Positions 18,618-54,446 of a stretch of 64,000 nt of DNA are shown piece by piece. Source of the stretch: an uncultured Methanosarcinales archaeon (GTDB lineage Archaea > Nanobdellota > Nanobdellia > Woesearchaeales > JAGWAF01); NCBI GenBank assembly GCA_964414985.1, contig CAYPXA010000007.1, positions 12,233-76,232 of the forward strand, written 5' to 3'. The position numbers were made by a program, and so were the translations under genes. How positions within the stretch are numbered: the first letter of the stretch is position 1; every line of letters starts with the position of its first letter. Under the pieces are notes generated by a model that saw only the letters and a list, made by a program, of their open reading frames with translations, was not told where the DNA came from and did no database searches.

Positions 18618-19658
18618 ATGGAAAGCAAGACAGCAGAGAGGATTATTGAAAAAATATGCAGCAGGGCAGAGCCGGCTGGAAAGCATATAGTCTTCAATTC
18701 AGAAAGCTACAGGCCTGCAGAGATACGCCCCTCAAATTTCAAAGCAATCAAAGAATCAAGGTTTAATGGAAGGATTGCATTTGTCGACGGAGGAAACATC
18801 ACTGTGGTTGAGGGGGCTGACTTCTGCCTGCAGGCTGCAAGGATATACCACACAGTTTACTTCTCAAACAAAAGGGTGAGAAGCGGAAGGGATGAGTTTT
18901 TTGCTTTTGCAGGAAAGGAAAAAGGTGAAATCTCAGTTGAGATTATAAGGGCTGAAACTGCTGATGGGCCTCATGAAAATTCTGCAAAAAAAATGTCATT
19001 CAGCCTTTATGACCCATCTCTTGCAACAAAATTCAGCAATGCAAGCCCTGCTGCAGCTGCAAATGCGGCAAGAAAGCTGGCAGAGCTGTCTCATGCGCTT
19101 GATGTTGCAGCAACCCTTGAATCAGGGGATATTCTTGCTCTTGACAGGGATTTGCAGCCTTCAGTCACAGGAGAGGATGAGCTGCTTGCAAAGATAAGGG
19201 CAAAGGCTGCTGAAAAAGGGGTTATTGTGTGCGGAATCTCAAAGACAAGCAGGCTCTGCACAGAAGAGGGCGGAAGCGCGGCAGAAGCTGTGAGAAAAAT
19301 TGAGCCTTCAGGAGAATGGCATTACCATCCTGCATGCATTCCTGAAAAGGAGAATGCTGAAATAATGCTTGCAAAGCTGCACAGCTCATCAAAGTACATA
19401 TTCAGGATTGACACATTCTCCAAATCAGCTGATGAGATTGAGCCTATGCTTTCAGCGCTCAAGGAAAACTCTTCAGACCCTGTTTTTTTTGGGTATCCGT
19501 ACGGAATGATTGAGGCAGACAGATTTGCAAGAGTCAGCAATGAAGAGGCAGAATACATGAAGGTAAGGATTATTGCAAAAGCAGGAAGCAATTCTGCAAA
19601 AATAGCAAGGCTGATGAGCTCTGTTGATGCGCACTCTGTTCTTGACAACATCTCTTGA
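18618..19658 (+). CDS. NurA-like 5'-3' nuclease domain protein (tentative)
   Basis: The ordered motifs IAFVDGGN, ILALDRDL and VCGISKTSRL resemble NurA motifs (aiDGS, llDGSL, SKTS). No herA, mre11 or rad50 are adjacent. Confidence 0.35.
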   Translation: MESKTAERIIEKICSRAEPAGKHIVFNSESYRPAEIRPSNFKAIKESRFNGRIAFVDGGNITVVEGADFCLQAARIYHTVYFSNKRVRSGRDEFFAFAGKEKGEISVEIIRAETADGPHENSAKKMSFSLYDPSLATKFSNASPAAAANAARKLAELSHALDVAATLESGDILALDRDLQPSVTGEDELLAKIRAKAAEKGVIVCGISKTSRLCTEEGGSAAEAVRKIEPSGEWHYHPACIPEKENAEIMLAKLHSSSKYIFRIDTFSKSADEIEPMLSALKENSSDPVFFGYPYGMIEADRFARVSNEEAEYMKVRIIAKAGSNSAKIARLMSSVDAHSVLDNIS

Positions 19659-21480: not shown

Positions 21481-22494
21481 TTACTTCTTTTTTATAACCT
21501 TGACCAAAGGAACTTTTTCTTTTACCACGATATTCTCATACTTGCCGTAAGGCTCAACATAGGCATCATTTTCCAGCCTGAAAAAAATTAGGTTCCTGTT
21601 GCTCACATCAACATCAATCCCAAAAGTATCCTTCAGGTAATCCTTCCTCTTTTGAGTGCTCCACTTAGGGTTTAAATGGCCTGAATCGTCGAGAAAATAG
21701 CCGTGCCTTATCAGAGTCTCAATAGGAATAACCGAGATTAAAGGGCCCCTTGCCGGGTTCACCTTCATTTTGTCAAACGGAAGAAAGCCTACTTTGTCTT
21801 GCTCAGGCCACAAAGTGTCCCTTTCATTCTCCAAGCGCACATATACCCCCTTTCCAAAATCAGATTCTTTTGCCTTGTCTATGCGCTTAGGATCCATAAA
21901 CCCCTTTTCATTCTTTATTCTGCCCTTAAGCTTGTGGTAAACCTCTTCAAACCTGTGAAGGCTCTTGTCAAGGTGCTCTTTGCTTGAATTTGGGGACATT
22001 GCCTCAATGAACTGCCTGTATTTCCATTTCTCCCTGGGATCTGAGTCTGAATAAAGCCTTAGAAGGTCTGAAAGAAACTCGCTTCTGAGCGCACTCCTCA
22101 GCTCGCGGTCTGAAGATGCTTCTTTTATTTCATTAAGGGAATAAGAGTCGCCGTTATTTCCGTCAATAATGTAATAAGCATCTTCACGGGAATGCTCTTT
22201 TTTCTTTAGCATGCTTGTATGCTTGACTGCAATTTTTTCTTCAAGAGTCTTCGGCTTCTTTTTTTCATGTTCAGCTTCATGCACAGGAGCGATTAATTCG
22301 GCTGTGGCTTCTGCTGCAATAAAGAATACAGCCGAAGCAAGAAATAAGATAATGCCAAAAAGAGCGCTTAATTCACTGCCGCCAGCCTGCCCAAATGCTG
22401 CAGCGCCGGTTATTCCTGATTCAGGATTCAAAAAAAACAGGGTTCCAATCAGGAGAAGCGCAAAACCCAAAAACCTAAATGAATTTTTGTTCAT
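21481..22494 (-). CDS. membrane-anchored hypothetical protein (337 aa)
   Basis: Two N-terminal hydrophobic helices, then a charged soluble domain. Confidence 0.4.
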   Translation of the reverse strand: MNKNSFRFLGFALLLIGTLFFLNPESGITGAAAFGQAGGSELSALFGIILFLASAVFFIAAEATAELIAPVHEAEHEKKKPKTLEEKIAVKHTSMLKKKEHSREDAYYIIDGNNGDSYSLNEIKEASSDRELRSALRSEFLSDLLRLYSDSDPREKWKYRQFIEAMSPNSSKEHLDKSLHRFEEVYHKLKGRIKNEKGFMDPKRIDKAKESDFGKGVYVRLENERDTLWPEQDKVGFLPFDKMKVNPARGPLISVIPIETLIRHGYFLDDSGHLNPKWSTQKRKDYLKDTFGIDVDVSNRNLIFFRLENDAYVEPYGKYENIVVKEKVPLVKVIKKK

Positions 22495-24462: not shown

Positions 24463-25011
24463 TTACTGGCGCTGGATTTCCATTAGGCGCGCAGTTAGCT
24501 TCTTCTGCTCTTCAAGCAGCTTGTCGTACTGCACTTTCTTGGCAGGGTTTATCTGGCCGTGCTCATAATCCCACTGCATTATCTTTATCTTCGGCTCAAT
24601 CTGCTCAAGCCTTTCCTTTATCTGCATCTCTTCAGGGTCTGCTGCAGGAAGCGCTGCTTTTTTCTCCTTCTTGACTTCTTCCTCGAATTCCTTTATGCCC
24701 TTTGGAGGCTCTGGAACATCAATTTCAGATTCAGGAGCAGATTCCAATTCAGGCTCTTCAGCAGGAGTTTTCCTTGCAGGAGCAGGCATTTCAGGAGCTT
24801 CAGCTGTCTCAAGCATGTCTATCTTCTCCTTCTCTGCCTCAATCCTTCTCTTGAGCTCTTCTGCTTTCTTCTCGAGCTCTTCCTTATCATGCTCCTGTGA
24901 AGCTGAAGGCATTCCAGGCATCTTCAGCTTTGGCGCTGATTTAGCTTCTTCAATAGAGCTTTCCTCAGACTCATCAATAAAATCTTCATTATTTTCCGGT
25001 TCATCAGCCAT
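24463..25011 (-). CDS. acidic coiled-coil hypothetical protein
   Basis: 182 aa, Glu/Lys-rich (EELEKKAEELKRRIEAEKEKIDMLE). Confidence 0.35.
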   Translation of the reverse strand: MADEPENNEDFIDESEESSIEEAKSAPKLKMPGMPSASQEHDKEELEKKAEELKRRIEAEKEKIDMLETAEAPEMPAPARKTPAEEPELESAPESEIDVPEPPKGIKEFEEEVKKEKKAALPAADPEEMQIKERLEQIEPKIKIMQWDYEHGQINPAKKVQYDKLLEEQKKLTARLMEIQRQ

Positions 25012-25140: not shown

Positions 25141-25214
25141 GGGGCTGTAGTCTAACTTGGTATGATTCCAGGTTCGGGACCTGGAGGTTCGGAGTTCAAA
25201 TCTCCGCAGCCCCA
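25141..25214 (+). tRNA. tRNA-Pro (anticodon CGG)
   Basis: Acceptor GGGGCTG/CAGCCCC (7 bp) with discriminator A. Anticodon arm CCAGG-TTCGGGA-CCTGG has U33, CGG at 34-36 and G37. T arm CGGAG-TTCAAAT-CTCCG. No encoded CCA. Confidence 0.65.
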
Positions 25215-27269: not shown

Positions 27270-29681
27270 ATGGACAAGTCCAAGCAGTTTGTTCTCTGGT
27301 TTGATGAGATAGGAATAGAGGATGTTGCGCTCGTTGGAGGCAAAAACGCATCCCTCGGAGAAATGTACAGGAACCTGTCCAAAAAGGGAGTCAGCATCCC
27401 GAATGGCTTTGCAATTACCGCTTATGCATACAAATACCTTCTGGAAAAGGCAGGAGTTGAAGAAGAAATAAAGCAGATTCTTTCAGACCTTGATGTAAAA
27501 GACATGAAAAACCTGCAGGATAGAGGCAGGAAGGTAAGGGAAATAATCAGGAACTGCCACTTTCCATCAGAGCTTAAGGTTGCCATAATAAGCGCATACC
27601 ACAAGCTCTGCCAGCAGTACGGAAAAGACACTGATGTTGCAGTCAGGAGCAGTGCAACAGCTGAAGACCTGCCGACTGCAAGCTTTGCAGGCCAGCAGGA
27701 AACCTACCTCAACATAAAAGGAGGGCACCAGCTGATTGAGGCGTGCAAGAACTGCTTTGCATCATTGTTTACAAACAGGGCAATGTCCTACAGGGAAGAG
27801 AAGGGATTCGGCCATTTCAAGGTTTACCTTAGCATAGGAGTGCAGAAGATGGTCAGGTCAGACATTGCATCTTCAGGAGTAATGTTCTCAATAGACACAG
27901 AATCAGGATTCAGCGATGTTGTTTTTATCACAGCTGCATACGGATTGGGAGAAAATATCGTCCAGGGAGCTGTAAATCCAGATGAATATTATGTCTTCAA
28001 GCCGACTCTTGCAAAAGGGTTCAGGCCGATAATCGCAAGAAGCGTTGGCGAGAAAAAAATAAAGATGATTTACACAGAAGAGGGAAACAAGACAACAAAG
28101 AATGTTGATGTTCCTGAAACTGAAAGAAAAAAGCTTGTCCTTTCTGATGACGAAGCCCTGAAGCTTGCCAGGTGGGCATGCATAATAGAGGAGCACTACA
28201 GCAAGAAAGCAGGAAAGCCAAAGCCAATGGACCTTGAGTGGGCAAAAGATGGCAGGACAAACGAGCTGTTCATAGTGCAGGCAAGGCCTGAAACAGTCCA
28301 GAGCCAGAAAAACGGAAATGTAATCCAGGACTATGAGCTTGTTGACAAGGGAAGGGTGCTGTGCACAGGAAGAAGCGTAGGAGACAGGATAGGCCAGGGA
28401 AAAGCCCATATCATAAAAGACGTAAAAGATATTGAGAAATTCAAGAAGGGAGAAGTTCTCGTGACAGAAATGACAGACCCTGACTGGGAGCCGATAATGA
28501 AGATTGCCTCTGCAATTGTAACAAACAAGGGAGGCAGGACATGCCACGCAGCAATCATCAGCAGGGAGCTTGGAATTCCGTGCGTTGTTGGAACAAATGA
28601 CGGAACAGAGAAGGTGAGGGATGGCCAGAACATCACAGTAAGCTGTGCAGAAGGCGAGACAGGAACTATTTACGAGGGGCTGCTCAAGTTCAGGATTAAT
28701 GAAGTAAATCTTGAAAAGATGCCTGAAACAAAAACACAGGTCATGATGAACGTCGGAAATCCCTATGAGGCTTTTGAGTTCAGGGCAAAGCCGAATTCAG
28801 GAGTCGGGCTTGCAAGGGAGGAATTCATAATCAATTCTTACATAAAAGTGCACCCGAGGGCGCTTATCGAATTCAGCAAAATAAAGGATGCAAAGCTGAA
28901 AGAGCAGATTAATGACATTACATTCAACTACAAGGACAAGAAGCAGTTCTTTGTCGACAAGCTTGCAGAAGGCATAGGAATGATTGCAGCTGCATTTTAT
29001 CCAAAAAAAGTCATTGTCAGGATGAGCGACTTCAAGACAAACGAATATGCAAACCTTATCGGCGGAAAGGCATACGAGCCTGACGAGGAAAACCCAATGA
29101 TTGGGTGGAGGGGCGCGTCAAGATACTACTCGCCGGACTACAGGGAGGCATTTGCCCTTGAGTGCGACGCAATAAAGAAGGTAAGGAATGAGATGGGCCT
29201 TGTAAACGTCAGGGTTATGATACCATTCTGCAGGACTGTTGAAGAAGGAAAAAAGGTTCTTGCTGAAATGGCAAAGAACGGCCTAAAGAAAGGGCAAAAC
29301 TCGCTTGAGGTTTATGCAATGTGCGAGATTCCATCAAACGTGATTCTTGCAGATGAATTCCTTGAGATATTCGACGGATTTTCAATAGGCACAAATGACT
29401 TAACCCAGCTTACACTCGGGCTTGACAGGGATTCTTCACTTGTTGCGCATATCTACGACGAGAGGAACGAGGCTGTCAAGTCGCTTGTTGCAAAAGTCAT
29501 TGAAGTTGCAAACAAGAAGAAGAAATACATAGGCATCTGCGGCGATGCTCCCTCCACATACCCTGAATTTGCGCAGTTCCTTGTGAAGTGCGGAATACAG
29601 TCAATATCACTTTCGCCTGATGCAGTTGTAAGGACAACGCTGAAGATTGCAGAGATGGAAAAGAAGCTCAGGCAGAAATAA
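27270..29681 (+). CDS. ppsA: phosphoenolpyruvate synthase (pyruvate, water dikinase)
   Basis: 803 aa; N-terminal VALVGGKNASLGEMY, a central phospho-His domain (GGRTCHAAIISRELGIPCVVG), and a C-terminal PEP-utilising TIM barrel. Confidence 0.85.
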   Translation: MDKSKQFVLWFDEIGIEDVALVGGKNASLGEMYRNLSKKGVSIPNGFAITAYAYKYLLEKAGVEEEIKQILSDLDVKDMKNLQDRGRKVREIIRNCHFPSELKVAIISAYHKLCQQYGKDTDVAVRSSATAEDLPTASFAGQQETYLNIKGGHQLIEACKNCFASLFTNRAMSYREEKGFGHFKVYLSIGVQKMVRSDIASSGVMFSIDTESGFSDVVFITAAYGLGENIVQGAVNPDEYYVFKPTLAKGFRPIIARSVGEKKIKMIYTEEGNKTTKNVDVPETERKKLVLSDDEALKLARWACIIEEHYSKKAGKPKPMDLEWAKDGRTNELFIVQARPETVQSQKNGNVIQDYELVDKGRVLCTGRSVGDRIGQGKAHIIKDVKDIEKFKKGEVLVTEMTDPDWEPIMKIASAIVTNKGGRTCHAAIISRELGIPCVVGTNDGTEKVRDGQNITVSCAEGETGTIYEGLLKFRINEVNLEKMPETKTQVMMNVGNPYEAFEFRAKPNSGVGLAREEFIINSYIKVHPRALIEFSKIKDAKLKEQINDITFNYKDKKQFFVDKLAEGIGMIAAAFYPKKVIVRMSDFKTNEYANLIGGKAYEPDEENPMIGWRGASRYYSPDYREAFALECDAIKKVRNEMGLVNVRVMIPFCRTVEEGKKVLAEMAKNGLKKGQNSLEVYAMCEIPSNVILADEFLEIFDGFSIGTNDLTQLTLGLDRDSSLVAHIYDERNEAVKSLVAKVIEVANKKKKYIGICGDAPSTYPEFAQFLVKCGIQSISLSPDAVVRTTLKIAEMEKKLRQK

Positions 29682-30609
29682 CATAAATCTTCTTTGACAA
29701 TGATTTGTGCAGGTAAACTGTAAATTCTGCCTCGACATTCAGGCCTGCATCCTTAAGCATCTGCCTGTTTGGAGTGAAGTCAGGAAGCCCTATTACAGCC
29801 TTTTTCTTGAGCAATTTTTTCAGCACGCTGAAGAATTTTGGGTAAAGCAGGCTTAAATCCTGAGATTTTGTAGCCTTTGCATAAGGCAGGTCTGAAGCAA
29901 GATAATTCATCTTTTTTCTTATGAGAGATGCATCCTTTTTTTCAAGCCTGCATTCTATGCCAAACGACTTAAGGTTTTTCCCTGCCATTTTCAGCATTTC
30001 ATCGTCGATATCAGACCCCTCGGGAGCAAGGCCCATAAGCCCTGCCTCAAGCAGGATGCCGCCTGTGCCGCAGAATGGGTCGATGATTTTGCCGCTCTTT
30101 ATTCCTGTGAGGTTGACAAAAGCCCTTGCGAGCTTTGGATGGAGAGATGAAGGATGCATTTCAGGCCTTAGGTGGGGCCTTCTTGCCTCCAGCTCTGAAT
30201 GGCATATTTCCTTAATAAGCCTTGCAGCAAACATTCTGCCATTCTCAAAGAAGAAATGGAATTCTGAATCTGGGTTTCTAAGGCAGACTTTCGGGCTTTC
30301 CAAAGTTTTCCAAACTATGTCTGCAAATTGTTTTTCCTTTTCCTTGGGAGCATTGTGAACCCTTGTGCAGAACGAGCCTTTGCAGAATTTCTGCCAGCCG
30401 AAAGATGCTGCCTTTGATTCAGCATCTTCTGCGCTGCACTCAAAGAGAAGCTCATAAGCTGCCTTTGTGAATGCAAGCCTTCCAAAATCAATGAATGAAG
30501 AATCCAAAAGAAGAATGCCTCCTTCAAGCCTTCCTTTTCCGAACAGCGCTTCAGCCTCTGCTTTTGCAAGCTCAAGGTTTGATTTCAGCAGCTCAAGCAA
30601 TAGTTTCAT
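29668..30609 (-). CDS. THUMP-domain tRNA (guanine-N2) methyltransferase, Trm-G10/Trm11-like (UPF0020)
   Basis: DPFCGTGG SAM motif followed by a ...DIDD... catalytic region; the N-terminal region is THUMP-like. Confidence 0.6.
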   Translation of the reverse strand: MKLLLELLKSNLELAKAEAEALFGKGRLEGGILLLDSSFIDFGRLAFTKAAYELLFECSAEDAESKAASFGWQKFCKGSFCTRVHNAPKEKEKQFADIVWKTLESPKVCLRNPDSEFHFFFENGRMFAARLIKEICHSELEARRPHLRPEMHPSSLHPKLARAFVNLTGIKSGKIIDPFCGTGGILLEAGLMGLAPEGSDIDDEMLKMAGKNLKSFGIECRLEKKDASLIRKKMNYLASDLPYAKATKSQDLSLLYPKFFSVLKKLLKKKAVIGLPDFTPNRQMLKDAGLNVEAEFTVYLHKSLSKKIYVISA

Positions 30610-31048: not shown

Positions 31049-31720
31049 TCAAACAAGCTTTCTCAAGAATCCCATCAACGCAAATGCCTCCCTCTTTGTA
31101 AGGAAGCTCTTTGACACCATCTTCTTCCAGACAAGAACCTGCGTCTTTTTCTTTTCAGGAGTGCTGAAATCCATCTTTGACATTGCCTGCTTCAGAAGCT
31201 TCATGACCTGCTCCTTGTCCTGCCTGGCTGCAGGCTGTATGTGCGAAAGTATGCTTTCCCTTTTCTTTGCAAGCTCATAAAGGATGACAGCAGCAGCATG
31301 GCTCAAATTAAGGACAGGGTATTTTTTTGAGGATGGGATTGATGCAGAAAAATCGCATTCTGAAATCTCCTCATTTGTAAGGCCGTGGCTTTCCCTTCCG
31401 AAGACTATGCCTGCATTTGCTGCTGCAGGAATCATTTCAGCAAGCTGGCAGGGAGTTACTGCACATCTGCTGATGTTGTACTCTGTCCCTACCTTTCCTG
31501 TTGTCGCAACAAGAACATCCATCTTGGGCAGCCTTTTCACAACCTTTGCATTTTTCAGCACATCCTGCGCCCACTTTGCCCTGTTCCTTGCAGCCTGCGA
31601 AAGATGATTGCATTTTGGGTTTACAAGCACAAGGGAAGAAAAGCCGAAATTTGCCATTGCCCTTGCAACAGCTCCAACATTGCCTGAGTTCCTTGGCTCG
31701 ACAAGTATTACAGAAATCAT
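31049..31720 (-). CDS. SpoU/TrmH-family RNA 2'-O-methyltransferase (TrmJ-like)
   Basis: MISVILVEPRNSGNVGAVARAMANFGF is the SPOUT N-terminal signature. Start trimmed to the Met at 31720. Confidence 0.65.
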   Translation of the reverse strand: MISVILVEPRNSGNVGAVARAMANFGFSSLVLVNPKCNHLSQAARNRAKWAQDVLKNAKVVKRLPKMDVLVATTGKVGTEYNISRCAVTPCQLAEMIPAAANAGIVFGRESHGLTNEEISECDFSASIPSSKKYPVLNLSHAAAVILYELAKKRESILSHIQPAARQDKEQVMKLLKQAMSKMDFSTPEKKKTQVLVWKKMVSKSFLTKREAFALMGFLRKLV

Positions 31721-32907
31721 CTTACAAAAGGCAGCACAATGCTTGCAACAATTATTGCAAGGAAGACAAAGCTTACAAACTTCCATATGCCTGCTGCAAT
31801 GTCCTCCCTAAGGTACCTTTCAAGTATTGCCTTGAGCATTCTTCCGCCGTCAATAGGCCCGAGAGGGACAAGATTGAAAAGCCCGATGCCAAGGTTAAGG
31901 ACATAAAGCCAGTAGAAAAGGCCTATCACCCATATCAATGATGAAGTGGCAATAACCCCATATTTTTCCTGGAAGCTTTCCCTTATCTCATTGTTCTGCT
32001 GGAGATAAATTCCCATGTAGGACCTGTTTGAATCTTCAGGGTCTGATACAAGTGTTAAAGTGTATGATGAAACATTTGTCTGAAGGACAATTGAGTCGCC
32101 AGGATTCTTTGAGTTGAGCACTGAAGTAAAATTGTCAATCAACTGAACAGGATTTCCGTCAATAGCTGTTATTATCTCCCCTTTTGCTATTCCTGAAGCC
32201 TCTGCAGGGTAAGTCGTGTTGTCATGCCCCCTTATGTATCCTGCAACCTCTACTCCTGAAGGCTCGAAGATTGCATTGCCCAGAGGCATGAACAAAAGCC
32301 AGAATATGAGCGCAACAACTGCTGCAAATACTATGTTTGAGAAAGGCCCAGCAGCATAAACTGAAAGCTTGGTGCCTGTCTTTTTCTTCTGGAGCTCGTC
32401 CTCATCAGGCTCTACAAAAGCAAGAGGGAGTATCGGCGCAATTATTGCAAGGAAGCCGAATCCGCTTGATTTTATCTTGACTCCGTGAGCCCTTGCAATT
32501 ACTCCGTGCGAAAACTCATGCACAACTGCAAGAAGGAAGATGGATATTATCCAGTAAAAGAATGGGACATAAAAGCTGCCCTTGACCTTGAAAGGAAGCA
32601 CAAGCGCAACCCCCGATGTTGCAGCAGGCGTAATAAACATCTTTACAATGTTCATGACAAGAGAGTATGAAATGAATGCCATGCCTAGAAGAGCAACTGA
32701 TACTCCTGCATACCCTGCCCACTTTACCAGCCTCGGGAATTTTCCTGAAACCTTGTTCATAAAACCAAGGCCTATCTTGGTCTTGTACATTGCAAAATAA
32801 AGGATTGGAAACGCAATCTTCTGGATTGAAATCCTGGCCCAGTTCCTGAAGATGAAATAAGCCATCAGAAAAATAAAGACGATAGTTGCTATAGTCTGGA
32901 CATCCAT
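31717..32907 (-). CDS. site-2 protease (M50 metalloprotease) with PDZ domain
   Basis: HEFSHG (HExxH) in a TM helix, multiple TM segments, and a central PDZ-like insert (GIAKGEIITAIDGNPV). Confidence 0.7.
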   Translation of the reverse strand: MDVQTIATIVFIFLMAYFIFRNWARISIQKIAFPILYFAMYKTKIGLGFMNKVSGKFPRLVKWAGYAGVSVALLGMAFISYSLVMNIVKMFITPAATSGVALVLPFKVKGSFYVPFFYWIISIFLLAVVHEFSHGVIARAHGVKIKSSGFGFLAIIAPILPLAFVEPDEDELQKKKTGTKLSVYAAGPFSNIVFAAVVALIFWLLFMPLGNAIFEPSGVEVAGYIRGHDNTTYPAEASGIAKGEIITAIDGNPVQLIDNFTSVLNSKNPGDSIVLQTNVSSYTLTLVSDPEDSNRSYMGIYLQQNNEIRESFQEKYGVIATSSLIWVIGLFYWLYVLNLGIGLFNLVPLGPIDGGRMLKAILERYLREDIAAGIWKFVSFVFLAIIVASIVLPFVR

Positions 32908-35547: not shown

Positions 35548-35610
35548 TCAAAAACCTGTGCGCGGCCTATCGAAACCTTTAAAAACAAACTCATTTTCTC
35601 ATAGGCAAAA

Positions 35611-35729
35611 GGGGCTATGGGGTAGCTTGGCTTATCCTTTCTGGTTTGGGACCAGAAGACCCCGGTTCAAACCCGGCAGCCTTATTTGCAAAAATGAATA
35701 GGACTCTGGTGAAAGTCCGGGTAGCCCCA
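35611..35729 (+). tRNA. tRNA-Pro(UGG)-like gene with a roughly 44-nt insertion in the T-arm (putative non-canonical intron)
   Basis: Acceptor GGGGCTA (35611-17) pairs with TAGCCCC (35722-28), discriminator A. Anticodon arm TCTGG-TTTGGGA-CCAGA has U33, UGG and G37. T-stem half CCCGG and loop TTCAAAC (35661-72). The complementary CCGGG follows only at 35717-21, after an intervening 44 nt (35673..35716). Confidence 0.45.
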
Positions 35730-35774
35730 TTTTATCGATAAAAAAAATCAACCAATGCACGGAAGGAAAATCAA

Positions 35775-36197
35775 ATGGCAGTTGAAAAAAAGCTTGCAGG
35801 AGTGAAGAGGTTCGGCCCAAGATACGGCAGGAGCCTAAAGCAGAAATTCATCAAAGTAGAGTCAGAGCACAGGAAGACCCACAAGTGCCCGTACTGCAGC
35901 GGCATAAAGGCAACAAGGGTAAGCGTAGGAATATGGAGCTGCGCAAGGTGCGGTGCAAAGTTCACCGGAAGGGCATATACAATACCCAAGAAGCTCATAA
36001 TCAAGGAGTCTGCACTCAAGGAAGCAGCTGAAACGATTGAAGAAGCTGATGAAGGCGCATCTGAAGAGATTGCTGAAGAGGAGAAGCCGCAGAGATACAA
36101 GGAAAAGATGCAGGAGACTGCTGAAGAGCAGCAGCCTGAAGAAGCAGCAGAGCAGGAAGAGGAGCAGGCAGAAGAAAAAGAAGAGGAAGAGCAATAA
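35775..36197 (+). CDS. rpl37ae: 50S ribosomal protein eL43 (L37ae) with long acidic C-terminal extension
   Basis: N-terminus GPRYGRSLKQKF..., C4 ribbon CPYCS...CARCG; the last 50 or so residues are Glu-rich low complexity. Confidence 0.75.
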   Translation: MAVEKKLAGVKRFGPRYGRSLKQKFIKVESEHRKTHKCPYCSGIKATRVSVGIWSCARCGAKFTGRAYTIPKKLIIKESALKEAAETIEEADEGASEEIAEEEKPQRYKEKMQETAEEQQPEEAAEQEEEQAEEKEEEEQ

Positions 36198-39650: not shown

Positions 39651-40595
39651 ATGGAAAACCAAAACGGATACAGCGAAGCGTTCATGGATTTCTTTAGCTT
39701 CAGGCATACAAACCCTAACAATGAAAATCAGGAATTTGGGTACAGCAAGGAAGTTGCTGCCTACAATTTTATCCAGGAAAATGCAGATTATCCCGGGCAG
39801 GATTTGTTTGAACTCCAGAAGACCGGAAATTACGAGGTCCTTGTTCCTGTAAACTTCAAAAGAAAAGACAAAGTGCTTCCAAAGCTCTGCAGGACTGCAG
39901 CAGCGCTTTACAGCCTTGACATGAATGACAAAATAGCAGTCCAGAAAGTTGAAAGGCATGATGCGTGCAACACAAATCCTTTTAAGATTACCTGCAGCGT
40001 AAACAATGCAGAAAAAGTATTTTACCTGAAAAAGCCAGACACAAGAAGGGCGATAGGCAAGGCATTCTACAACATTCTTTCAAACGGAAAATTTGTAACC
40101 TACAAATTCAATGAAAACGGATTTGCAGCAGACGCTGTTCCCGGAAAGGAAATAGAAGACAATGAAAAGGACAGCCTTGCAGAAAACAGGCATTTTGTCG
40201 AGGAGCTGGTAAGGCTGAATGTGTTTACCAACCTGTTCATGCTTGACGACATCCTGAAGCAGACAAATTCAAACTGCGCATACAGCAGGAAAAATGGAAT
40301 TTGCCTGTTTGATTTTGACGGATTTTTCAGGGAGGGGTCATACCATGTCCTTTCAAACTTCAAGAAAATCAGGGAAATGATTGACATCAAATCAATTGAA
40401 AAAGATGAAAAATTCATGATCCACCAAAACCTCAGGAAAAACAGGAGCATGATAGAAAAGCTGATAACAGCTGCGTCAGAAAACATTGAGGAAACAGAAA
40501 ATCTCGCATGGTCCAGGGACGAAGATGATATTGGCGGGCTTTTGAGAAAAGAGCTTTCAAAAATAGGCGAGTGGTCAAATAAAAACTGCCAATAA
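39651..40595 (+). CDS. hypothetical protein with possible protein-kinase-like catalytic motifs
   Basis: NLFMLDDILKQTNSN (catalytic-loop-like D...N) followed by ICLFDFDG (DFG-like). No glycine-rich loop identified. Confidence 0.3.
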   Translation: MENQNGYSEAFMDFFSFRHTNPNNENQEFGYSKEVAAYNFIQENADYPGQDLFELQKTGNYEVLVPVNFKRKDKVLPKLCRTAAALYSLDMNDKIAVQKVERHDACNTNPFKITCSVNNAEKVFYLKKPDTRRAIGKAFYNILSNGKFVTYKFNENGFAADAVPGKEIEDNEKDSLAENRHFVEELVRLNVFTNLFMLDDILKQTNSNCAYSRKNGICLFDFDGFFREGSYHVLSNFKKIREMIDIKSIEKDEKFMIHQNLRKNRSMIEKLITAASENIEETENLAWSRDEDDIGGLLRKELSKIGEWSNKNCQ

Positions 40596-40603: not shown

Positions 40604-41053
40604 CTACTGCCCTATCCTTCTTGTCTTTGGCACAAAATTAAGTATTCTTCCGCCGCTGGCAGCCCTTCCTGTGCCTAAAAAGTCACTGCCTTGCCTTAGT
40701 ATCACAAATGACGAGATGCCTGTCTCCTTTTCAAGGTCTTCGCCCTTCATCCACCTGACAGCCTCTTCGCTGCTGATATCAACAACATTCTTTGATGCCT
40801 TTGGCCCTACAATCTGGCTTCCCTCAATGCTCAGCCTTATGCCGTTCTCTGTTTCTGCAAAGTACAGCCCAATGGAATTAATCTTAACCTTTGACAGGTC
40901 TATGCCGAAAACATCCTTTTTTGCAAGGTATATCTTTCCGCTTTCAGCCTCGATGAATGCGTAGTCAAGCTCTTCAGAAAATCCCCAGGTCTCATTGAGC
41001 ATTGCAAGAATCTTCTTGGATTCCTTTCTGTTGAGGATTTTTGCCTTCTGCAT
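40604..41053 (-). CDS. Nip7-like pre-PUA/PUA domain protein (UPF0113)
   Basis: About 150 aa; C-terminal PUA-like VILRQGSDFLGTGRAASGGRILNFVPKTRR. Start overlaps the aIF5B stop (TGATG). Confidence 0.45.
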   Translation of the reverse strand: MQKAKILNRKESKKILAMLNETWGFSEELDYAFIEAESGKIYLAKKDVFGIDLSKVKINSIGLYFAETENGIRLSIEGSQIVGPKASKNVVDISSEEAVRWMKGEDLEKETGISSFVILRQGSDFLGTGRAASGGRILNFVPKTRRIGQ

Positions 41054-42837
41054 CAGACACCCCACACCGGGCTCTTTTTTCTCATTATTTCTGCAATCTC
41101 CTTGAGAAGCGCCTTCTGCGGGCCTTCAACCAGGTGCTTGTGCTCCTTATACTGCCTGAAGTCCTGCTCTGAAACTGCTGAATAAAGGACATCCTCCTCC
41201 TTTATCTGCCTTCCGACAGTGACTCCTGGAAGAGAAATTGCAATTTCATCGCCCTTGACAGCCTTTTCAACTGTCTTCTGCTCCTTCTGCATGCTCTTGA
41301 CTGTTGCAACAATCTCGCCTTCAGGATTCATAAGCTGGGCGTCAGACCTTAGCTCGCCTTCAAGGACATGGACTCCCACAACAGCAGGATTGTTCTGCCT
41401 GAAGACATAGCCTTTGAGAATCTCAATCTTGCACGGCTTTGCAAGCATATCAAGCACTTTTGCCTCCTGCCTCTTGGTCTCCTCAATCTTCCAGGCCTCA
41501 TACTTGTCAAGCAGGTCATAGATGATGCTGCTGGTTATAATCTTGACATTCTCGTTCTTAAGCTCGTCTGGAACAGAAACATTAAATCCAAGGACTGCAG
41601 ACATAAGAGGGTCTTTGGCCATCATTGACTGCGCATCTATAATGTCTTTTTTTGAGATGTCTCCGATAAGCGCCTTTCTGATGGGTATGCCCCTGTCCTT
41701 AAAGATGAAGATGAGCGCCTCAAGCGAGCCCAGCGAATCTGCCTTTATAATTAATCCGTCCTTTTCAGTCTCGATAAGGACTTCTCCGACATCCTGCTGG
41801 ACTTCCTGCTTTGCAGAATCAATGCTTCCTGCGCCTGATGCTGAAATTATCGGCATGCCTGCAATTGCATCTTCAGCGCCTGGCGCAGATATCTTGATGC
41901 CTGTGGCAGCAACAGCCTGCTTTACAGGAGAAAATCTTGCCTTTTTGGTCCTCATCTCTGCAAGAGGGGCAGGCTCAAACATTGCCTTGACCTTTGCAAC
42001 AATCGGCTCGCCTATGTTGCCTATGACAACCTGGTCTCCGACATTAAGCGTGCCGTCGTAAATTATGACATCCATTGTTTTGCCAAGGCCTTTCTCCTCC
42101 TTGACTTCAAGTATTGTGCCTTTTGCAGGCCCATCAACATTGCATTCAAGGCACTGCTCAAGGTATTTCTGCGCAAGCCCTGTAAGAACCATCAAAAGCT
42201 CTGCAAGCCCCTCGCCGGTCTTGGCTGATATGGGGACTATTGCAACCTGCTTGGTGTAGTCTGAAACCCTGTCAAACCGCTCTGCTTCCATTTTGAACTT
42301 CTCGTAAAGCTGGCCTACAATAGAATACATTTTCTCCTCGAAAAGCCTCTGCGTATCTTCAGCCTGCATGCCTATGTCAGGAAGGACATTCTTGGAAGAC
42401 TGGCGCCATGTGCCTACAAGGTCTATCTTGTTTGCTGCAATCACAAAAGGTGTTTTGCTTGCCCTTAGGAACTCAATAGCCTCCTCTGTCTGCGGCTTAA
42501 ATCCATCATTTATGTCAACAACAACTATGCCAATATCTGCAAGATTGCCTCCCCTTCTCCTAAGGCTGGTGAATGCAGCGTGGCCTGGAGTGTCGATTGC
42601 AAGAATCCCAGGTATTGTAATATCAAGCTTAAGCGAGTCAAGAAGATGGCCGCATATCTTTTTAATAACCTCAATTGGTATGATTGATGCACCTATCGCC
42701 TGAGTGATAAGCCCTGCCTCTCCTGCTGTAACAGAGGTGCCCCTGATTTTGTCAAGCAGGCTGGTCTTTCCGTGGTCAACGTGGCCTACAACTGTAACAA
42801 GTATCTGCCTTATCCTCTTATTCTGCTGGATAGCCAT
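41053..42837 (-). CDS. infB: translation initiation factor aIF-5B (IF-2 homolog)
   Basis: VTVVGHVDHGKTSLLDKIRGT (G1) ... DTPGH ... NKID; 594 aa. Confidence 0.85.
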   Translation of the reverse strand: MAIQQNKRIRQILVTVVGHVDHGKTSLLDKIRGTSVTAGEAGLITQAIGASIIPIEVIKKICGHLLDSLKLDITIPGILAIDTPGHAAFTSLRRRGGNLADIGIVVVDINDGFKPQTEEAIEFLRASKTPFVIAANKIDLVGTWRQSSKNVLPDIGMQAEDTQRLFEEKMYSIVGQLYEKFKMEAERFDRVSDYTKQVAIVPISAKTGEGLAELLMVLTGLAQKYLEQCLECNVDGPAKGTILEVKEEKGLGKTMDVIIYDGTLNVGDQVVIGNIGEPIVAKVKAMFEPAPLAEMRTKKARFSPVKQAVAATGIKISAPGAEDAIAGMPIISASGAGSIDSAKQEVQQDVGEVLIETEKDGLIIKADSLGSLEALIFIFKDRGIPIRKALIGDISKKDIIDAQSMMAKDPLMSAVLGFNVSVPDELKNENVKIITSSIIYDLLDKYEAWKIEETKRQEAKVLDMLAKPCKIEILKGYVFRQNNPAVVGVHVLEGELRSDAQLMNPEGEIVATVKSMQKEQKTVEKAVKGDEIAISLPGVTVGRQIKEEDVLYSAVSEQDFRQYKEHKHLVEGPQKALLKEIAEIMRKKSPVWGV

Positions 42838-42999
42838 ATTAATCAGGATTAAAATGCGCCCGTTTATTTAGGTTTCTATTGTATGCGTTTATTTTTGCCA
42901 CTCATAGATAGCAAATGCTTCATAACCTTTAAATACAACCTATACTTCTTAGTGGTAACAAAATATACATCTATCGTAACAATCATAGGGGGTTTAAAC

Positions 43000-43965
43000 A
43001 TGAGAAAAGCAAAAAGTGCATTTGCCATAATGATGGTATTGATATGCTCAGTCCTGTCAGCAGGTTTTGCTGCTGCAGCGCCGGTCCCAGTAACACTGGA
43101 GAGGGTATGGATTGACGGAAACGCAGTTTCTGACATAATGGATTTTGAAAAGGGCGGAAACATTGAAATCAAGGTCAAGCTTGAAGCTCACGACGATGCA
43201 AAAAACGTGCAGGTCGAAGCAGAGCTGAAAGGATTTGAATATGATGACAAGTTCAAGACAGAAGATACAACACACGTATTTGATGTCGAGGAAGGCATAG
43301 AATACATAAAATACCTTGCTCTTGAAGTTCCTGACAAGATGGAAAACGATGAGTACCAGCTTAGGATAACAATCACAGACAGGGACAATGATGAGAGGGT
43401 ATATTCCTATACAATCAAGGTAAGCTCAGAAAGGCACAGCCTTCAGATAAGGGATGTTGATTTTACACCAGCATCAGGCGTTGAGGCTGGAAAGTCGCTC
43501 TTAACAAAGGTAAGGATAAAGAACATAGGCCAGAAGGACGAAGAGTCTGTGAAGGTCACTGTTGCAATTCCAGACCTTGGCGTAAGCGCATCAAGCTACA
43601 TTGATGAAATTGAAGCTGATGACACAGAGTCAAGCGAAGAGATGTGGATAAGGGTTCCTGAATGCGCAGAGGCAGGAGTTTATCAGGCAGTAGTCAGGGT
43701 AATGTATGACGAAATGTTTGAGACTGTCTACGCAGCAAAGAGCATTGAAATTGTCTCAGGAGACCTCTGCCCAGCAGATGCTGAAGAGGAAGAAGAAGAG
43801 GCAGCCCCAATCATAGTGCCAGCAGCACCAGCTCCAAAGCAGGACGAAGGAAAGGAAATGCTGAGGAGTGCGCTTGAAGTCGGCCTTGTCGGCCTGCTTG
43901 TTGCACTTATCATAATTGCGCTTGTCGCAGGAATGGTTGCGCTTAGGAAGAACAAGGGCTACTAA
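43000..43965 (+). CDS. secreted surface protein with N-terminal signal peptide and C-terminal TM anchor
   Basis: MRKAKSAFAIMMVLICSVLSAGFAAAAP is a signal peptide. An acidic beta-rich body follows. C-terminal helix LVGLLVALIIIALVAGMVAL plus KNKGY. Confidence 0.5.
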   Translation: MRKAKSAFAIMMVLICSVLSAGFAAAAPVPVTLERVWIDGNAVSDIMDFEKGGNIEIKVKLEAHDDAKNVQVEAELKGFEYDDKFKTEDTTHVFDVEEGIEYIKYLALEVPDKMENDEYQLRITITDRDNDERVYSYTIKVSSERHSLQIRDVDFTPASGVEAGKSLLTKVRIKNIGQKDEESVKVTVAIPDLGVSASSYIDEIEADDTESSEEMWIRVPECAEAGVYQAVVRVMYDEMFETVYAAKSIEIVSGDLCPADAEEEEEEAAPIIVPAAPAPKQDEGKEMLRSALEVGLVGLLVALIIIALVAGMVALRKNKGY

Positions 43966-46836: not shown

Positions 46837-47121
46837 TTATTCTCCCTGAGAAATTGAATACCTTCCCTCCTCAATCCCCTCGCTTCTGCATTTCGGGCAC
46901 TTTGTAGGAGCCTTCAGCTTCAAGCGCTCCTTGAAGACAAAGCCGCACTGCCTGCAGAAAGGAGGCGAGAACCTAAACCTTAAAGGAAGCTGAGTGCTTC
47001 TCCTGACATGCTCAAGATCTGCAATAATCTCTGACATCTCTGCAAAGAAATGCGATGCAAGCTCCTTAGGAGTCCATGCCCTCTGCCTCAAGAGCATTGA
47101 GATTTCCTTTCTTCGGGTCAT
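46837..47121 (-). CDS. transcription regulator with HTH fused to Zn ribbon (COG3357-like)
   Basis: 94 aa; N-terminal HTH-like region and a C-terminal CRQCG...CPKC zinc ribbon. Overlaps the upstream gene by 4 nt. Confidence 0.5.
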   Translation of the reverse strand: MTRRKEISMLLRQRAWTPKELASHFFAEMSEIIADLEHVRRSTQLPLRFRFSPPFCRQCGFVFKERLKLKAPTKCPKCRSEGIEEGRYSISQGE

Positions 47122-47873
47122 TTTTGGATTTCTTGCCTGAAAATCTTCTCAAGGATATCAAGCGTGTAAAGAATCATTGCCTGCGCCTGCTCCCTTGAAG
47201 GCATAAAAGCCTGCTGCTGGAAATGCACAGATGAAATCCGCACATTATTGATAAGATGAATCTGCTGCATAAGCCCTGGGTCAAGCTCAACCTTTTCTTC
47301 TGAAAGCTTTGCAACAATCTTGCCAAGCCCTATTCCAGGGGATTTCTCAAGCAAATCAACTCCTGTGATTTCAAAATACTTCCTGTGAAGGCAGACCTCA
47401 AGAAGCCTTGCGCACAGTATTGCAGACGACCTGAAGCCTCCTGCATTGAATACCTTCTGAAGCTCGTCGATGTCTGCATAGACGTCAAGCCTTATTTCTG
47501 CAGGGATTCCTGAAGGCTTTTTCAGGTCATTTGACTTTGGCTCGCTGAGCATTGCGCACATGTCAAGGACTTTTGAAAGCACACTATCCTTGTTTTCCTC
47601 GATGTCAAGCCTTGAGACAGCATCCCTTATCTTTTCAACAGCAGAGGCGTTTGACGGGTCGTAGCATACAAGGTTGAGGAGCATTGCAGACTTTGATTTT
47701 ACCTGCTGGATTCCGACACGAACTGCATTCTTGTAGTACTCTTCCTTGCTCTTGCTGAAGTCAAACAGCCTGCTTTCTCCGAGCGGCTTGCTAAGGTCAA
47801 TGCCTTTTGCAGCAGCATTCCCAATTGCAGCTCTAAGCTCAACAACTGCCTTTGTAAATTCATTAAGCGCCAT
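47118..47873 (-). CDS. hypothetical protein with C-terminal HEPN-like Rx4H motif
   Basis: 251 aa; ...IHLINNVRISSVHFQQ contains R-x4-H, the HEPN RNase signature, and the C-terminal region is predicted helical. Confidence 0.4.
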   Translation of the reverse strand: MALNEFTKAVVELRAAIGNAAAKGIDLSKPLGESRLFDFSKSKEEYYKNAVRVGIQQVKSKSAMLLNLVCYDPSNASAVEKIRDAVSRLDIEENKDSVLSKVLDMCAMLSEPKSNDLKKPSGIPAEIRLDVYADIDELQKVFNAGGFRSSAILCARLLEVCLHRKYFEITGVDLLEKSPGIGLGKIVAKLSEEKVELDPGLMQQIHLINNVRISSVHFQQQAFMPSREQAQAMILYTLDILEKIFRQEIQK

Positions 47874-47946: not shown

Positions 47947-48405
47947 ATGATAAGAAAAATATACATCTCAGGGCCTTGGGGAACAAACGCTGAAAGCAGA
48001 AAATTCCTAAAGAGCGAGCTGGAAGAGTCTGTTCAAAAATACGGGATTCCTGTCCATTCTCTTGTATTCATAAACTCTGACTGCATTGCCCAGGCTGAAA
48101 AAAAGCAGGATGAAAGGGAAAAGATAGCTGAATGGCTTGGGATTTCGCACGCATTCTCAAATTATTCAAAGAAAGCCATGAACTTAAGCAGCTGCCTTGT
48201 AGCAGTTCTTGACGGAACAGATTCAGACATTGTTACAGTGCAAGACATGCACTATTTTCAAAGCCTGGACAGGCCGATGATTGCATACACAGGTCTTGTA
48301 AAGCCAGGCTTATTGCCTAATTCAAATGCATTGGGAATTGCAAGAGCGCAGGCAAAATCCATAAACGACCTTGAGAAGCACCTGGGATATTATTTTCCAG
48401 CTTAG
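47947..48405 (+). CDS. nucleoside 2-deoxyribosyltransferase-like (NDT/SLOG-fold) protein, tentative
   Basis: N-terminal KIYISGPW (Rossmann-like start) and LVAVLDGTDSDIVTVQDMHYF, resembling the NDT-family ...DG.D.GT..E.GY motif. Confidence 0.35.
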   Translation: MIRKIYISGPWGTNAESRKFLKSELEESVQKYGIPVHSLVFINSDCIAQAEKKQDEREKIAEWLGISHAFSNYSKKAMNLSSCLVAVLDGTDSDIVTVQDMHYFQSLDRPMIAYTGLVKPGLLPNSNALGIARAQAKSINDLEKHLGYYFPA

Positions 48406-53661: not shown

Positions 53662-53809
53662 AATTAACAGGTTTTTCAAAGAAATCCGGCCGTCAAACAT
53701 GAAGCACAAAAAGAAGTATTGGCACTATTTGAAGCATAAAATCGTGCCTCTTACCCAAGAACTTCTTAAGCGTTAGGTTTATATATAACATGGTGATTCA
53801 TCAGTTTAC

Positions 53810-53948: not shown

Positions 53949-53967
53949 TTTAATATTCTAAACCAAA

Positions 53968-54313: not shown

Positions 54314-54406
54314 TATTGCCGCGCTCCGTTACTATTATTGAACCGCTTCTGGTCAGGAGCCACCCTTTGAATAATCTCAAAAAACGAGTACTGCGCTTGG
54401 CGGCAA
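54314..54406 (-). repeat. 95-bp inverted-repeat element copy E (subtype 1, termini slightly eroded)
   Basis: atattgccgcgctccgttactattattgaaccgcttctggtcaggagccaccctttgaataatctcaaaaaacgagtactgcgcttggcggcaa. Confidence 0.7.
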
Positions 54407-54446
54407 CAAACCAAATCTTTTAATACCCAGAAACAGAATCAGGCAT

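What the first reader, a model, noticed from the sequence alone, without database searches (positions are those of the whole stretch)
35611..35729. 119-nt tRNA-Pro(UGG)-like gene with an insertion in the T-arm rather than at 37/38
A perfect 7-bp acceptor stem, an anticodon stem-loop (U33, UGG, G37) and a T-loop TTCAAAC are all present, but the 3' strand of the T-stem (CCGGG) lies 44 nt downstream of where it should be. The implied intervening sequence sits at about position 59/60, not the canonical 37/38. Non-canonical intron positions are known from some archaeal lineages and require a relaxed-specificity splicing endonuclease. This gene would be a concrete test case, and automated tRNA finders often miss or mis-call such genes.
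Basis: partly seen in the sequence, partly recalled or inferred. Interest (0 to 1): 0.55.

Follow-up and report, generated by a model that had tools for sequence, protein, structure and literature searches.

The report
tRNA-Pro gene with T-loop intron
This is a real proline tRNA gene from a tiny uncultured archaeon (Woesearchaeota), interrupted by a 44-base intron in the T-loop instead of next to the anticodon; this kind of intron is already known in archaea, and standard tRNA finders get the gene wrong.

Summary
Window 35611..35729 (+) is a tRNA-Pro(UGG) gene with a 44-nt intron (35672..35715) between tRNA positions 59 and 60.

The junctions form a strict 3-4-3 helix-bulge-helix-bulge-helix motif in the minimum-energy fold. 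Splicing there gives a 75-nt tRNA with a perfect 7-bp acceptor stem, a 5-bp T-stem and the T-loop UUCAAAU.

ARAGORN and Rfam instead call a defective 74-nt gene (35611..35684, 35.2 bits). It ends on a decoy 3' end inside the intron. Intronless orthologues score 55-62 bits.

The host is a Woesearchaeota (DPANN) archaeon. Relatives carry the same gene between aRF1 and L37Ae. I found 112 distinct introns of 17-50 nt at this site:
- The central-helix 3' strand is NGAA in 104 of 112.
- The outer intron helix covaries.
- Acceptor position 7 pairs with the distal position 66 in 82 of 82 genes.

The kind is known. Position 59/60 is a listed archaeal intron site, and ARMAN-2 (also DPANN) has 59/60 introns in tRNA-Cys and tRNA-Pro(GGG). 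This is a new member of a known kind, of modest interest. The splicing endonuclease is not in the window, and no RNA data were available.

The parts
35571..35585 (+). Putative archaeal promoter: BRE-like CGAAACC followed by TATA box TTTAAAAA, centred about 30 nt upstream of the mature 5' end
   Evidence: Read from the sequence. The same GAAAsCTTTAAAAA element lies upstream in L001 and L002. TTTAWA starts between -42 and -24 in 50 of 82 family genes, peaking at -34. Function is inferred.
35611..35671 (+). Exon 1, tRNA positions 1-59: acceptor 5' strand, D-arm, anticodon arm (UGG at 35647-35649), 4-nt variable loop, T-stem 5' strand and T-loop bases 54-59
   Evidence: It differs at only 2 positions from L001 and L002.
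35672..35715 (+). 44-nt BHB intron between tRNA positions 59 and 60
   Evidence: BHB register. The 59/60 register is the only one that gives the conserved T-loop UUCAAAU. Relatives have 112 distinct introns at this site.
35716..35729 (+). Exon 2, tRNA positions 60-73: U60, T-stem 3' strand CCGGG, acceptor 3' strand TAGCCCC and discriminator A73. No CCA is encoded.
   Evidence: Position 66 here pairs with position 7 in 82 of 82 distinct genes (G:C 51, A:T 31).
35661..35665 (+). BHB outer helix h, 5' strand (the T-stem 5' strand); pairs with 35717-35721
   Evidence: Pair table of the minimum-energy fold.
35666..35669 (+). BHB central 4-bp helix H, 5' strand (U54 U55 C56 A57); pairs with UGAA at 35710-35713
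   Evidence: In relatives the partner strand is TGAA in 76 and NGAA in 104 of 112 introns, and only at this register. 92.9% of cells pair.
35670..35672 (+). 5' bulge AAC; predicted cleavage between 35671 and 35672
   Evidence: Unpaired in the minimum-energy fold. The cleavage register follows the BHB description in PMC4090602 and the comparative register test.
35673..35684 (+). Decoy 3' end inside the intron (CCGG-CAGCCTT-A). It lets tRNA finders close a 74-nt gene. Bases 35673-35676 are also the 5' strand of helix h'.
   Evidence: ARAGORN and Rfam end their call at 35684. This decoy is absent from most relatives.
35706..35709 (+). BHB helix h', 3' strand (CUGG); pairs with 35673-35676
   Evidence: All four h' pairs show changes on both sides across 92 sequences, with 0 of 500 shuffles reaching the observed covariation.
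35710..35713 (+). Central helix H, 3' strand (UGAA)
35714..35716 (+). 3' bulge AGU; predicted cleavage between 35715 and 35716
   Evidence: The bulge is AG|T in 57 and AA|T in 26 of 112 introns.
35717..35721 (+). Outer helix h, 3' strand (the T-stem 3' strand CCGGG)
35730..35733 (+). TTTT run directly after the discriminator base; likely transcription stop
   Evidence: Read from the sequence. TTT occurs within 10 nt of the distal 3' end in 56 of 82 family genes. Function is inferred.

Best explanation
Window 35611..35729 is a functional tRNA-Pro(UGG) gene of a Woesearchaeota (DPANN) archaeon, interrupted by a 44-nt protein-spliced (BHB) intron between T-loop positions 59 and 60.

Proposed mechanism:
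1. The gene is transcribed from a BRE/TATA promoter about 30 nt upstream and ends at the T-run after A73.
2. In the precursor, T-loop bases U54-A57 pair with the intron's UGAA to form the central 4-bp helix. The T-stem is the outer helix h. The ends of the intron form helix h'. Two 3-nt bulges (AAC and AGU) are left exposed.
3. The archaeal splicing endonuclease EndA cuts after the second base of each bulge, at 35671|35672 and 35715|35716.
4. An RtcB-type ligase joins the exons, and the CCA-adding enzyme encoded at 16853..18079 adds CCA.
5. Only after splicing can the T-loop fold, take its modifications and dock with the D-loop.

Shown here: the gene anatomy, the BHB, the exact register, and conservation and covariation. 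Inferred: transcription, cleavage, ligation and the order of steps.
For: Structure:
- The minimum-energy fold of the 119 nt is a cloverleaf with a strict 3-4-3 hBHBh'.
- The spliced product is a clean 75-nt tRNA-Pro(UGG). Its T-loop UUCAAAU matches the window's tRNA-Pro(CGG) and the intronless orthologues.
- The Rfam tRNA model gives 55-62 bits to intronless orthologues with near-identical exons, but only 35.2 bits to the 74-nt call.

Conservation:
- The gene lies between aRF1 and L37Ae in relatives. 9 of 14 such genes have an intron at the same site with divergent sequence.
In total there are 112 distinct introns of 17-50 nt.
- The four bases before the 3' bulge are NGAA in 104 of 112. They pair 4/4 with UUCA in 81 of 112, against at most 6 at any other offset and 2.3% by chance.
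- h' of at least 4 bp occurs in 79 of 112 introns, against a mean of 19 after shuffling.
- In the formal count H is 92.9% paired, all four h' pairs change on both sides, and 0 of 500 shuffles reach the observed covariation.
- Acceptor pair 7:66 across the intron is G:C 51 and A:T 31, with no mismatches.
- The base before CCGGG is T in 9 of 9 unconstrained genes, while the first intron base varies.

Context:
- A second tRNA in the window, tRNA-Gly(UCC), has a D-stem intron and a canonical intron.
- The window encodes a CCA-adding enzyme.
- 59/60 is a known archaeal intron site, and an ARMAN-2 59/60 intron was cleaved in vitro (PMC4090602, PMC3239211).
Against: - There is no RNA-level evidence of transcription or splicing.
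- No endA or rtcB gene lies in the window or in 863 kb of relatives' contigs that I fetched. The enzyme type for this genome is unknown.
- A strict BHB motif alone occurs about once per 3.7 kb here by chance.
- Only 16 of 47 single-intron relatives show helix H in their minimum-energy fold, and 11 show the full strict motif. The partner of A57 is unpaired in 24 of 92. Many family members therefore depend on a tolerant enzyme.
- The metagenome set was selected with fixed exon sequences. Only the intron, position 66 and the 5' half were free to vary.
Confidence: 0.93

Rival explanations
1. The real gene is the intronless 74-nt tRNA-Pro(UGG) called by ARAGORN and Rfam (35611..35684). On this view the downstream TCCGGGTAGCCCCA is an unused leftover copy of the 3' end.
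For: Both programs report it above threshold (35.2 bits against a gathering score of 29). A T-rich stretch (TTATTT) overlaps and follows its 3' end.
Against: - It needs a 4-bp T-stem, an A:C mismatch at 7:66 and two G:U pairs at the top of the acceptor stem.
- It scores 20-27 bits below intronless orthologues.
- The proximal end is not conserved. ARAGORN finds it in only 6 of 82 relatives, and L002, L004, L028, L042 and L044 lack it.
- The distal end is invariant and covaries with position 7 in 82 of 82 genes.
Confidence: 0.03
2. The locus is a decaying pseudogene. A tRNA gene was broken by an insertion and is no longer used, and another tRNA-Pro(UGG) elsewhere does the work.
For: Only 64 kb of the genome is visible, so a second copy cannot be excluded.
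Against: - The exons are almost invariant across relatives whose aRF1 is only 55-78% identical, while the intron diverges freely in sequence and length.
- The BHB elements are kept and covary.
- The promoter element and synteny are conserved.
- An insertion under no selection would not keep NGAA plus a 3-nt bulge at a fixed register in 104 of 112 lineages.
Confidence: 0.02
3. The intervening sequence is the scar of a duplication or an integration: a mobile element or tandem duplication copied the tRNA 3' end, and the proximal copy then decayed into the start of the intron. It is now spliced as a BHB intron, so this is a rival account of origin only, not of present function.
For: In the window, L001 and L145 the intron starts, in phase, with CCGG-CAGCC(C). 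This resembles tRNA positions 61-71 (CCGGG-YAGCCCC). Many introns of the family start with (N)AGCCC.
Against: - Across 82 genes the first 12 intron bases are no more similar to the gene's own exon 2 than shuffled introns are (mean score -4.9 against -5.3).
- The intron's copy does not track the 7:66 allele of its own exons.
- No integrase or element remnant lies nearby.
- The D-stem intron of tRNA-Gly shows no such signature.
- The resemblance may come from a single shared ancestral intron sequence.
Confidence: 0.08
4. The intron carries a functional small RNA, for example a box C/D guide RNA as in archaeal tRNA-Trp introns, and that is why it is kept.
For: At 44 nt it is longer than the 12-25 nt median of archaeal tRNA introns quoted in PMC4090602.
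Against: - The intron (printed) has no RUGAUGA or CUGA box.
- Nothing inside it is conserved. Family introns range from 17 to 50 nt with unrelated cores.
- Rfam finds no family in it.
Confidence: 0.02

Closest known systems
[quoted passage not shown] 2011, PMC3239211)
   Same: A DPANN host, intron site 59/60 in the T-loop, a proline tRNA, and a strict hBHBh' motif in the tRNA-Pro case. EndA cleavage of a 59/60 intron was shown in vitro for the tRNA-Cys.
   Different: A different phylum (Woesearchaeota) and isoacceptor (UGG). This gene has a single 44-nt intron. The ARMAN-2 enzyme is the three-unit epsilon2 type, whereas other DPANN lineages are reported to have alpha4 enzymes with an L3 loop (PMC5829648). 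The enzyme here is unknown.
Non-canonical BHB introns of Crenarchaeota and Thermoproteales, e.g. Pyrobaculum islandicum tRNA-Pro(UGG) with introns at 25/26, 37/38 and 56/57 (reviewed in PMC4090602)
   Same: The same mechanism class: protein-spliced BHB introns at positions other than 37/38, with up to three per gene. 59/60 is among the listed positions. The family found here also reaches three introns per gene.
   Different: Those hosts are TACK archaea with (alpha-beta)2 EndA carrying the Crenarchaea-specific loop. Here the host is a small-genome DPANN archaeon.
Canonical archaeal tRNA intron at 37/38
   Same: The same 3-4-3 bulge-helix-bulge geometry and the same predicted chemistry (EndA cleavage, RtcB ligation). 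Relatives L007 and L008 have a 37/38 intron in the orthologous gene.
   Different: The central helix is built from T-loop bases 54-57 instead of anticodon-loop bases 32-35. The outer helix is the T-stem instead of the anticodon stem. The precursor therefore cannot form the T-loop or the T-loop/D-loop elbow before splicing.

Membership tests
Archaeal BHB (EndA-spliced) tRNA intron | Joining the exons gives a canonical cloverleaf tRNA | tested here: met
   The 75-nt product has a 7-bp acceptor stem, a 5-bp T-stem, a 7-nt T-loop UUCAAAU, U33, UGG, G37 and A73. Near-identical intronless orthologues score 55-62 bits on RF00005.
Archaeal BHB (EndA-spliced) tRNA intron | The exon-intron junctions lie in two 3-nt bulges separated by a 4-bp helix and flanked by helices h and h' | tested here: met
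   The minimum-energy fold and an explicit scan give h of 5 bp, H of 4 bp, h' of 4 bp, and bulges AAC and AGU.
Archaeal BHB (EndA-spliced) tRNA intron | The motif is conserved or covaries in homologues while the intron core diverges | tested here: met
   112 distinct introns. The H partner is NGAA in 104 of 112, at one register only. h' covaries, with 0 of 500 shuffles reaching the observed score.
Archaeal BHB (EndA-spliced) tRNA intron | The genome encodes the splicing endonuclease EndA and an RtcB-type ligase | not testable with these tools
   Neither gene is in the 64-kb window. This rests on phmmer with an EndA query verified as identical to PDB 1A79, and on Pfam scans of 47 ORFs. Neither is in 863 kb of relatives' contigs. 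The rest of the genome is not available.
Archaeal BHB (EndA-spliced) tRNA intron | A spliced mature tRNA (and an excised or circular intron) exists in the cell | not testable with these tools
   No transcriptome data can be reached.
Non-canonical intron, position class 59/60 | The intron lies between Sprinzl positions 59 and 60 | tested here: met
   The BHB register puts the cuts at 35671|35672 and 35715|35716. Only this register gives A59 and U60 as in intronless orthologues. T precedes CCGGG in 9 of 9 genes, while the first intron base varies.
Intronless tRNA (the 74-nt ARAGORN/Rfam call, 35611..35684) | A regular 7-bp acceptor stem and 5-bp T-stem closed by the proximal 3' end, conserved in orthologues | tested here: not met
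   It has an A:C mismatch plus two G:U pairs and a 4-bp T-stem, and scores 35.2 bits against 55-62. The proximal end is absent in most relatives.
Intron-encoded box C/D sRNA (tRNA-Trp type) | C (RUGAUGA) and D (CUGA) boxes and a conserved guide inside the intron | tested here: not met
   No boxes in the intron sequence, no conserved core among 112 introns, and no Rfam match.
Split or permuted tRNA gene | The tRNA halves are encoded apart or in permuted order | tested here: not met
   Both exons are contiguous, collinear and on one strand within 119 nt.

The most novel reading that the evidence does not exclude
The 59/60 intron of tRNA-Pro(UGG) may be an ancient, mostly vertically inherited feature of Woesearchaeota/Nanoarchaeia. 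That would make it one of the largest families of orthologous non-canonical tRNA introns. It would be processed by an alpha4-type EndA (with the DPANN L3 loop) that tolerates relaxed motifs at a non-canonical site, which runs against the older rule that alpha4 enzymes cut only strict motifs at 37/38. In a few lineages, including this window, the intron begins with an in-phase copy of the tRNA's own 3' end. That could be a trace of how the intron arose (by duplication or integration), a process whose mechanism is still unknown.
Probability: 0.15. Interest if true: 0.5.

Novelty: new member of a known kind. Interest (0 to 1): 0.3.

Why it matters
In practice this is an annotation trap. The default ARAGORN and Rfam calls give this genome a defective 74-nt tRNA-Pro(UGG), and ARAGORN's default mode misses the window's tRNA-Gly(UCC) altogether. 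Across the family ARAGORN got none of 82 genes right. tRNA complements of DPANN genomes assembled from metagenomes will look incomplete unless an intron-aware archaeal search is used.

In biology it adds a large, well-sampled set of introns at one orthologous site: 112 sequence variants, alongside intronless, canonical-intron and multi-intron alleles. That set could be used to study how tRNA introns are gained, lost and drift, and to define what the DPANN splicing endonuclease will accept.

It does not reveal a new mechanism.

Tried and rejected
- **Exact look-up of the window's aRF1 and its 100% match** found no contig. Relatives were reached through P0002 and P0006 instead.
A single 20-50 nt gap was used, so introns shorter than 20 nt or longer than 50 nt are under-sampled.
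- **EndA search.** phmmer with M. jannaschii EndA (checked as identical to PDB 1A79) found nothing in the window or in 178 loci. Pfam on 47 window ORFs found no tRNA_int_endo or RtcB domain. I ran no further search on lineage-level EndA architecture, because it could not be tied to this genome and PMC5829648 already covers DPANN.
- **Origin by duplication of the tRNA 3' end.** The resemblance is real in the window, L001 and L145, but it is not general, so I kept it only as a low-probability origin scenario.
- **Box C/D RNA in the intron:** rejected, as there are no boxes and no conservation.
- **BHB as stand-alone evidence:** rejected as insufficient, because 35 chance motifs of equal quality occur in the window.
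- **Thermodynamic folding as a family-wide test:** weak. Only 16 of 47 genes show helix H in the minimum-energy fold.
- **Rfam e-value mode on 53700..54050** returned nothing, although the gathering-mode scan finds the tRNA there. I put this down to a filter effect.
- **The weak snoR22 hit at 35730..35788** (21 bits against 50, E = 2.2) is chance.
- **The supplement of PMC5829648** is not held, so I could not check whether its Woesearchaeota tRNA list includes this intron.

Full report
**What is there**

ARAGORN and the Rfam tRNA model do not report a 119-nt gene. Both call a 74-nt tRNA-Pro(UGG) at 35611..35684, and Rfam scores it at 35.2 bits against a gathering score of 29. That model closes the acceptor stem on CAGCCTT. 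It needs an A:C mismatch, two G:U pairs and a 4-bp T-stem. So two gene models had to be told apart.

**Structure**

The minimum-energy fold of the 119 nt (-48 kcal/mol) is a cloverleaf that uses the distal 3' end. Its T-arm is a textbook 3-4-3 bulge-helix-bulge:
- h: 35661-65 with 35717-21 (the T-stem)
- H: 35666-69 (UUCA) with 35710-13 (UGAA)
- bulges: 35670-72 (AAC) and 35714-16 (AGU)
- h': 35673-76 with 35706-09

The published geometry is a 4-bp helix flanked by two 3-nt bulges, with the first two anticodon bases inside the helix for a 37/38 intron (PMC4090602). Cleavage therefore falls after the second bulge base. Here that gives exon 1 = 35611..35671, intron = 35672..35715 (44 nt) and exon 2 = 35716..35729, which is position 59/60.

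The spliced 75-nt RNA has a perfect acceptor stem, a 5-bp T-stem and the T-loop UUCAAAU. This matches the window's tRNA-Pro(CGG) at 25141..25214.

**Chance**

A strict BHB alone proves little. With G:U pairs allowed, 35 motifs with h of at least 5 and h' of at least 4 occur on the two strands of the window. Only the site 35671|35716 restores a tRNA. The case rests on that coincidence and on comparison with relatives.

**Host and relatives**

The neighbouring genes are aRF1, aIF5A, L37Ae, L40e and prefoldin. The best aRF1 matches are Woesearchaeota, a DPANN lineage. In relatives the same tRNA lies between L37Ae and aRF1. Among 55 genome loci fetched through aRF1, together with the two metagenomic relatives L001 and L002 and the window, 14 have the gene at this place:
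- 9 have an insertion at the same T-loop site with divergent sequence: window, L001, L002, L004, L008, L028, L042 (17 nt), L044 and L055.
- 3 are intronless: L015, L031 and L033.
- L007 has only a canonical 37/38 intron.
- L008 has both a canonical and a 59/60 intron.

Together with the genome loci it gave 112 distinct introns.

**Comparative tests**

- **Central helix H.** The four intron bases before the 3' bulge are TGAA in 76 and NGAA in 104 of 112 introns. They pair 4/4 with UUCA in 81 and at least 3/4 in all 112. At every other offset the count is at most 6, and the chance rate is 2.3%.
- **Helix h'.** At least 4 bp are present in 79 of 112 introns, against a mean of 19 (maximum 32) after shuffling.
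- **Formal pair count.** On a gapless 37-column BHB-core alignment of 92 sequences, H is 92.9% paired. All four h' pairs show changes on both sides, with all six pair types. There are 136 doubly changed cells against 64 ± 8 after shuffling, and 0 of 500 shuffles reach the observed score. Pairing is highest at slide 0.
- **Acceptor stem.** Position 7 and the distal position 66 are G:C in 51 and A:T in 31 of 82 distinct genes, with no mismatch.
- **Splice register.** In the 9 genes where it was not fixed by my pattern, the base before CCGGG is always T, as in the intronless orthologues (A59 T60). The first intron base varies.
- **Rfam scores.** Intronless orthologues score 62.5, 61.0 and 55.4 bits. 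The 74-nt calls in the window and L001 score 35.2 and 34.1. The other intron-bearing genes are not detected.

These results reject the 74-nt model and the pseudogene reading.

**Caveats**

Many relatives are relaxed rather than strict. The partner of A57 is not a standard pair in 24 of 92 sequences. Only 16 of 47 single-intron genes show helix H in their minimum-energy fold, and 11 show the full motif. The window's copy is one of the clean ones. No RNA data were available. No endA or rtcB gene is in the window or in the fetched contigs. The window does encode a class-I CCA-adding enzyme at 16853..18079, which fits a gene with no encoded CCA.

**Signals at the gene ends**

A BRE-like CGAAACC plus TTTAAAAA lies at 35571-35585 and is conserved in L001 and L002. 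TTTAWA peaks at -34 in the family. A TTTT run follows A73 directly. These are sequence observations, and their function is inferred.

**Mechanism**

The precursor presents the BHB. EndA cuts both bulges. An RtcB-type ligase joins exons 1 and 2, and CCA is then added. T-loop bases 54-57 are locked in helix H. T-loop folding, T-loop modification and the D-loop/T-loop elbow must therefore wait for splicing. The structure is shown here; the enzymology is inferred from the established archaeal pathway (PMC4090602, PMC3239211).

**Comparison with what is known**

Position 59/60 is listed among known archaeal non-canonical intron sites (PMC4090602). In ARMAN-2, also a DPANN archaeon, a tRNA-Cys 59/60 intron was cleaved in vitro by the epsilon2 EndA, and a tRNA-Pro(GGG) carries 53/54 and 59/60 introns in a strict hBHBh' (PMC3239211). 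Kaneta et al. predicted tRNA genes for a Woesearchaeote. They report that DPANN lineages pair alpha4-type EndA carrying an L3 loop with many disrupted tRNA genes, and that some DPANN tRNA sets remain incomplete (PMC5829648). The present gene is a new member of this known kind.

This is borne out. ARAGORN's default mode missed 76 and mis-called 6 of 82 family genes, and got none right.

**Origin idea considered**

In the window, L001 and L145 the intron begins, in phase, with CCGG-CAGCC(C). This looks like a decayed copy of tRNA positions 61-71, and it is the reason the 74-nt call exists. Across the family the start of the intron is no more like the gene's own exon 2 than shuffled introns are. 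This stays a low-probability hint about origin.

**Verdict**

It is a new member of a known kind, of modest interest, mainly as an annotation trap and as a large comparative data set.

Noticed in passing
window 53810..53948 (+): A second disrupted tRNA, tRNA-Gly(UCC), with two introns. One is 38 nt at D-stem position 23/24 (53833-53870; H 4/4, h only 2 bp, h' 5 bp). The other is 29 nt at 37/38 (53885-53913; one U:C mismatch in H). Removing both gives a clean 72-nt cloverleaf. ARAGORN's default mode misses the gene, and with introns enabled it calls 'tRNA-Pyl(cta)'.
   Followed up: partly
window 16853..18079 (+): A class-I (archaeal) CCA-adding enzyme, with Pfam tRNA_NucTransf2, NTP_transf_2 and CAA_C domains. 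This fits tRNA genes that do not encode CCA.
   Followed up: no
window 29668..30609 (-), 31049..31786 (-), 40604..41065 (-), 54375..55394 (+): Several genes of RNA/tRNA-modification type are scattered around the two disrupted tRNA genes: a UPF0020 (Trm11-like) methyltransferase, a SpoU-family methylase, a PUA-domain protein and a dihydrouridine synthase.
   Followed up: no
window 35775..36197 (+): Ribosomal protein L37Ae has a highly acidic C-terminal tail of about 50 residues, rich in E, A and Q. It is 140 aa here and 122-124 aa in L001 and L002.
   Followed up: no
loci L059-L176 and L004-L058 (tRNA-Pro(UGG) family): 35 of 82 family genes carry further insertions besides the 59/60 intron. About 26 are at or near 37/38 and about 12 are in the D-loop (positions 19-21), with up to three introns per gene. 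Positions come from an alignment and are approximate.
   Followed up: partly
L042, '-' strand, positions 1772-1863 of the reverse complement: A mini-intron of only 17 nt at 59/60 (TGAGTAAATTCTGAAAG) that still keeps UGAA, the AG|U bulge and a 3-bp h'.
   Followed up: no
L055, '-' strand, positions 3222-3396 of the reverse complement: This orthologue has a 50-nt 59/60 intron and a large extra insertion in its 5' half. The 5' end I picked for it (GAAGCTG...) is uncertain.
   Followed up: no
window 35673..35684 (+); also L001 and L145: The intron starts with an in-phase look-alike of the tRNA's own T-stem and acceptor 3' strands (CCGG-CAGCC). It causes the false 74-nt call. The feature is not general in the family.
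   Followed up: yes
window 602..1249, 1757..2455, 3124..3867, 6843..7427, 9942..10859, 18618..19658, 21481..22494, 24463..25011, 39651..40595, 42883..43965, 47118..47873, 47947..48405, 55477..56265: Thirteen ORFs of 150-360 aa have no Pfam match at the cut-off used for each (E <= 0.01, E <= 1e-5).
   Followed up: no
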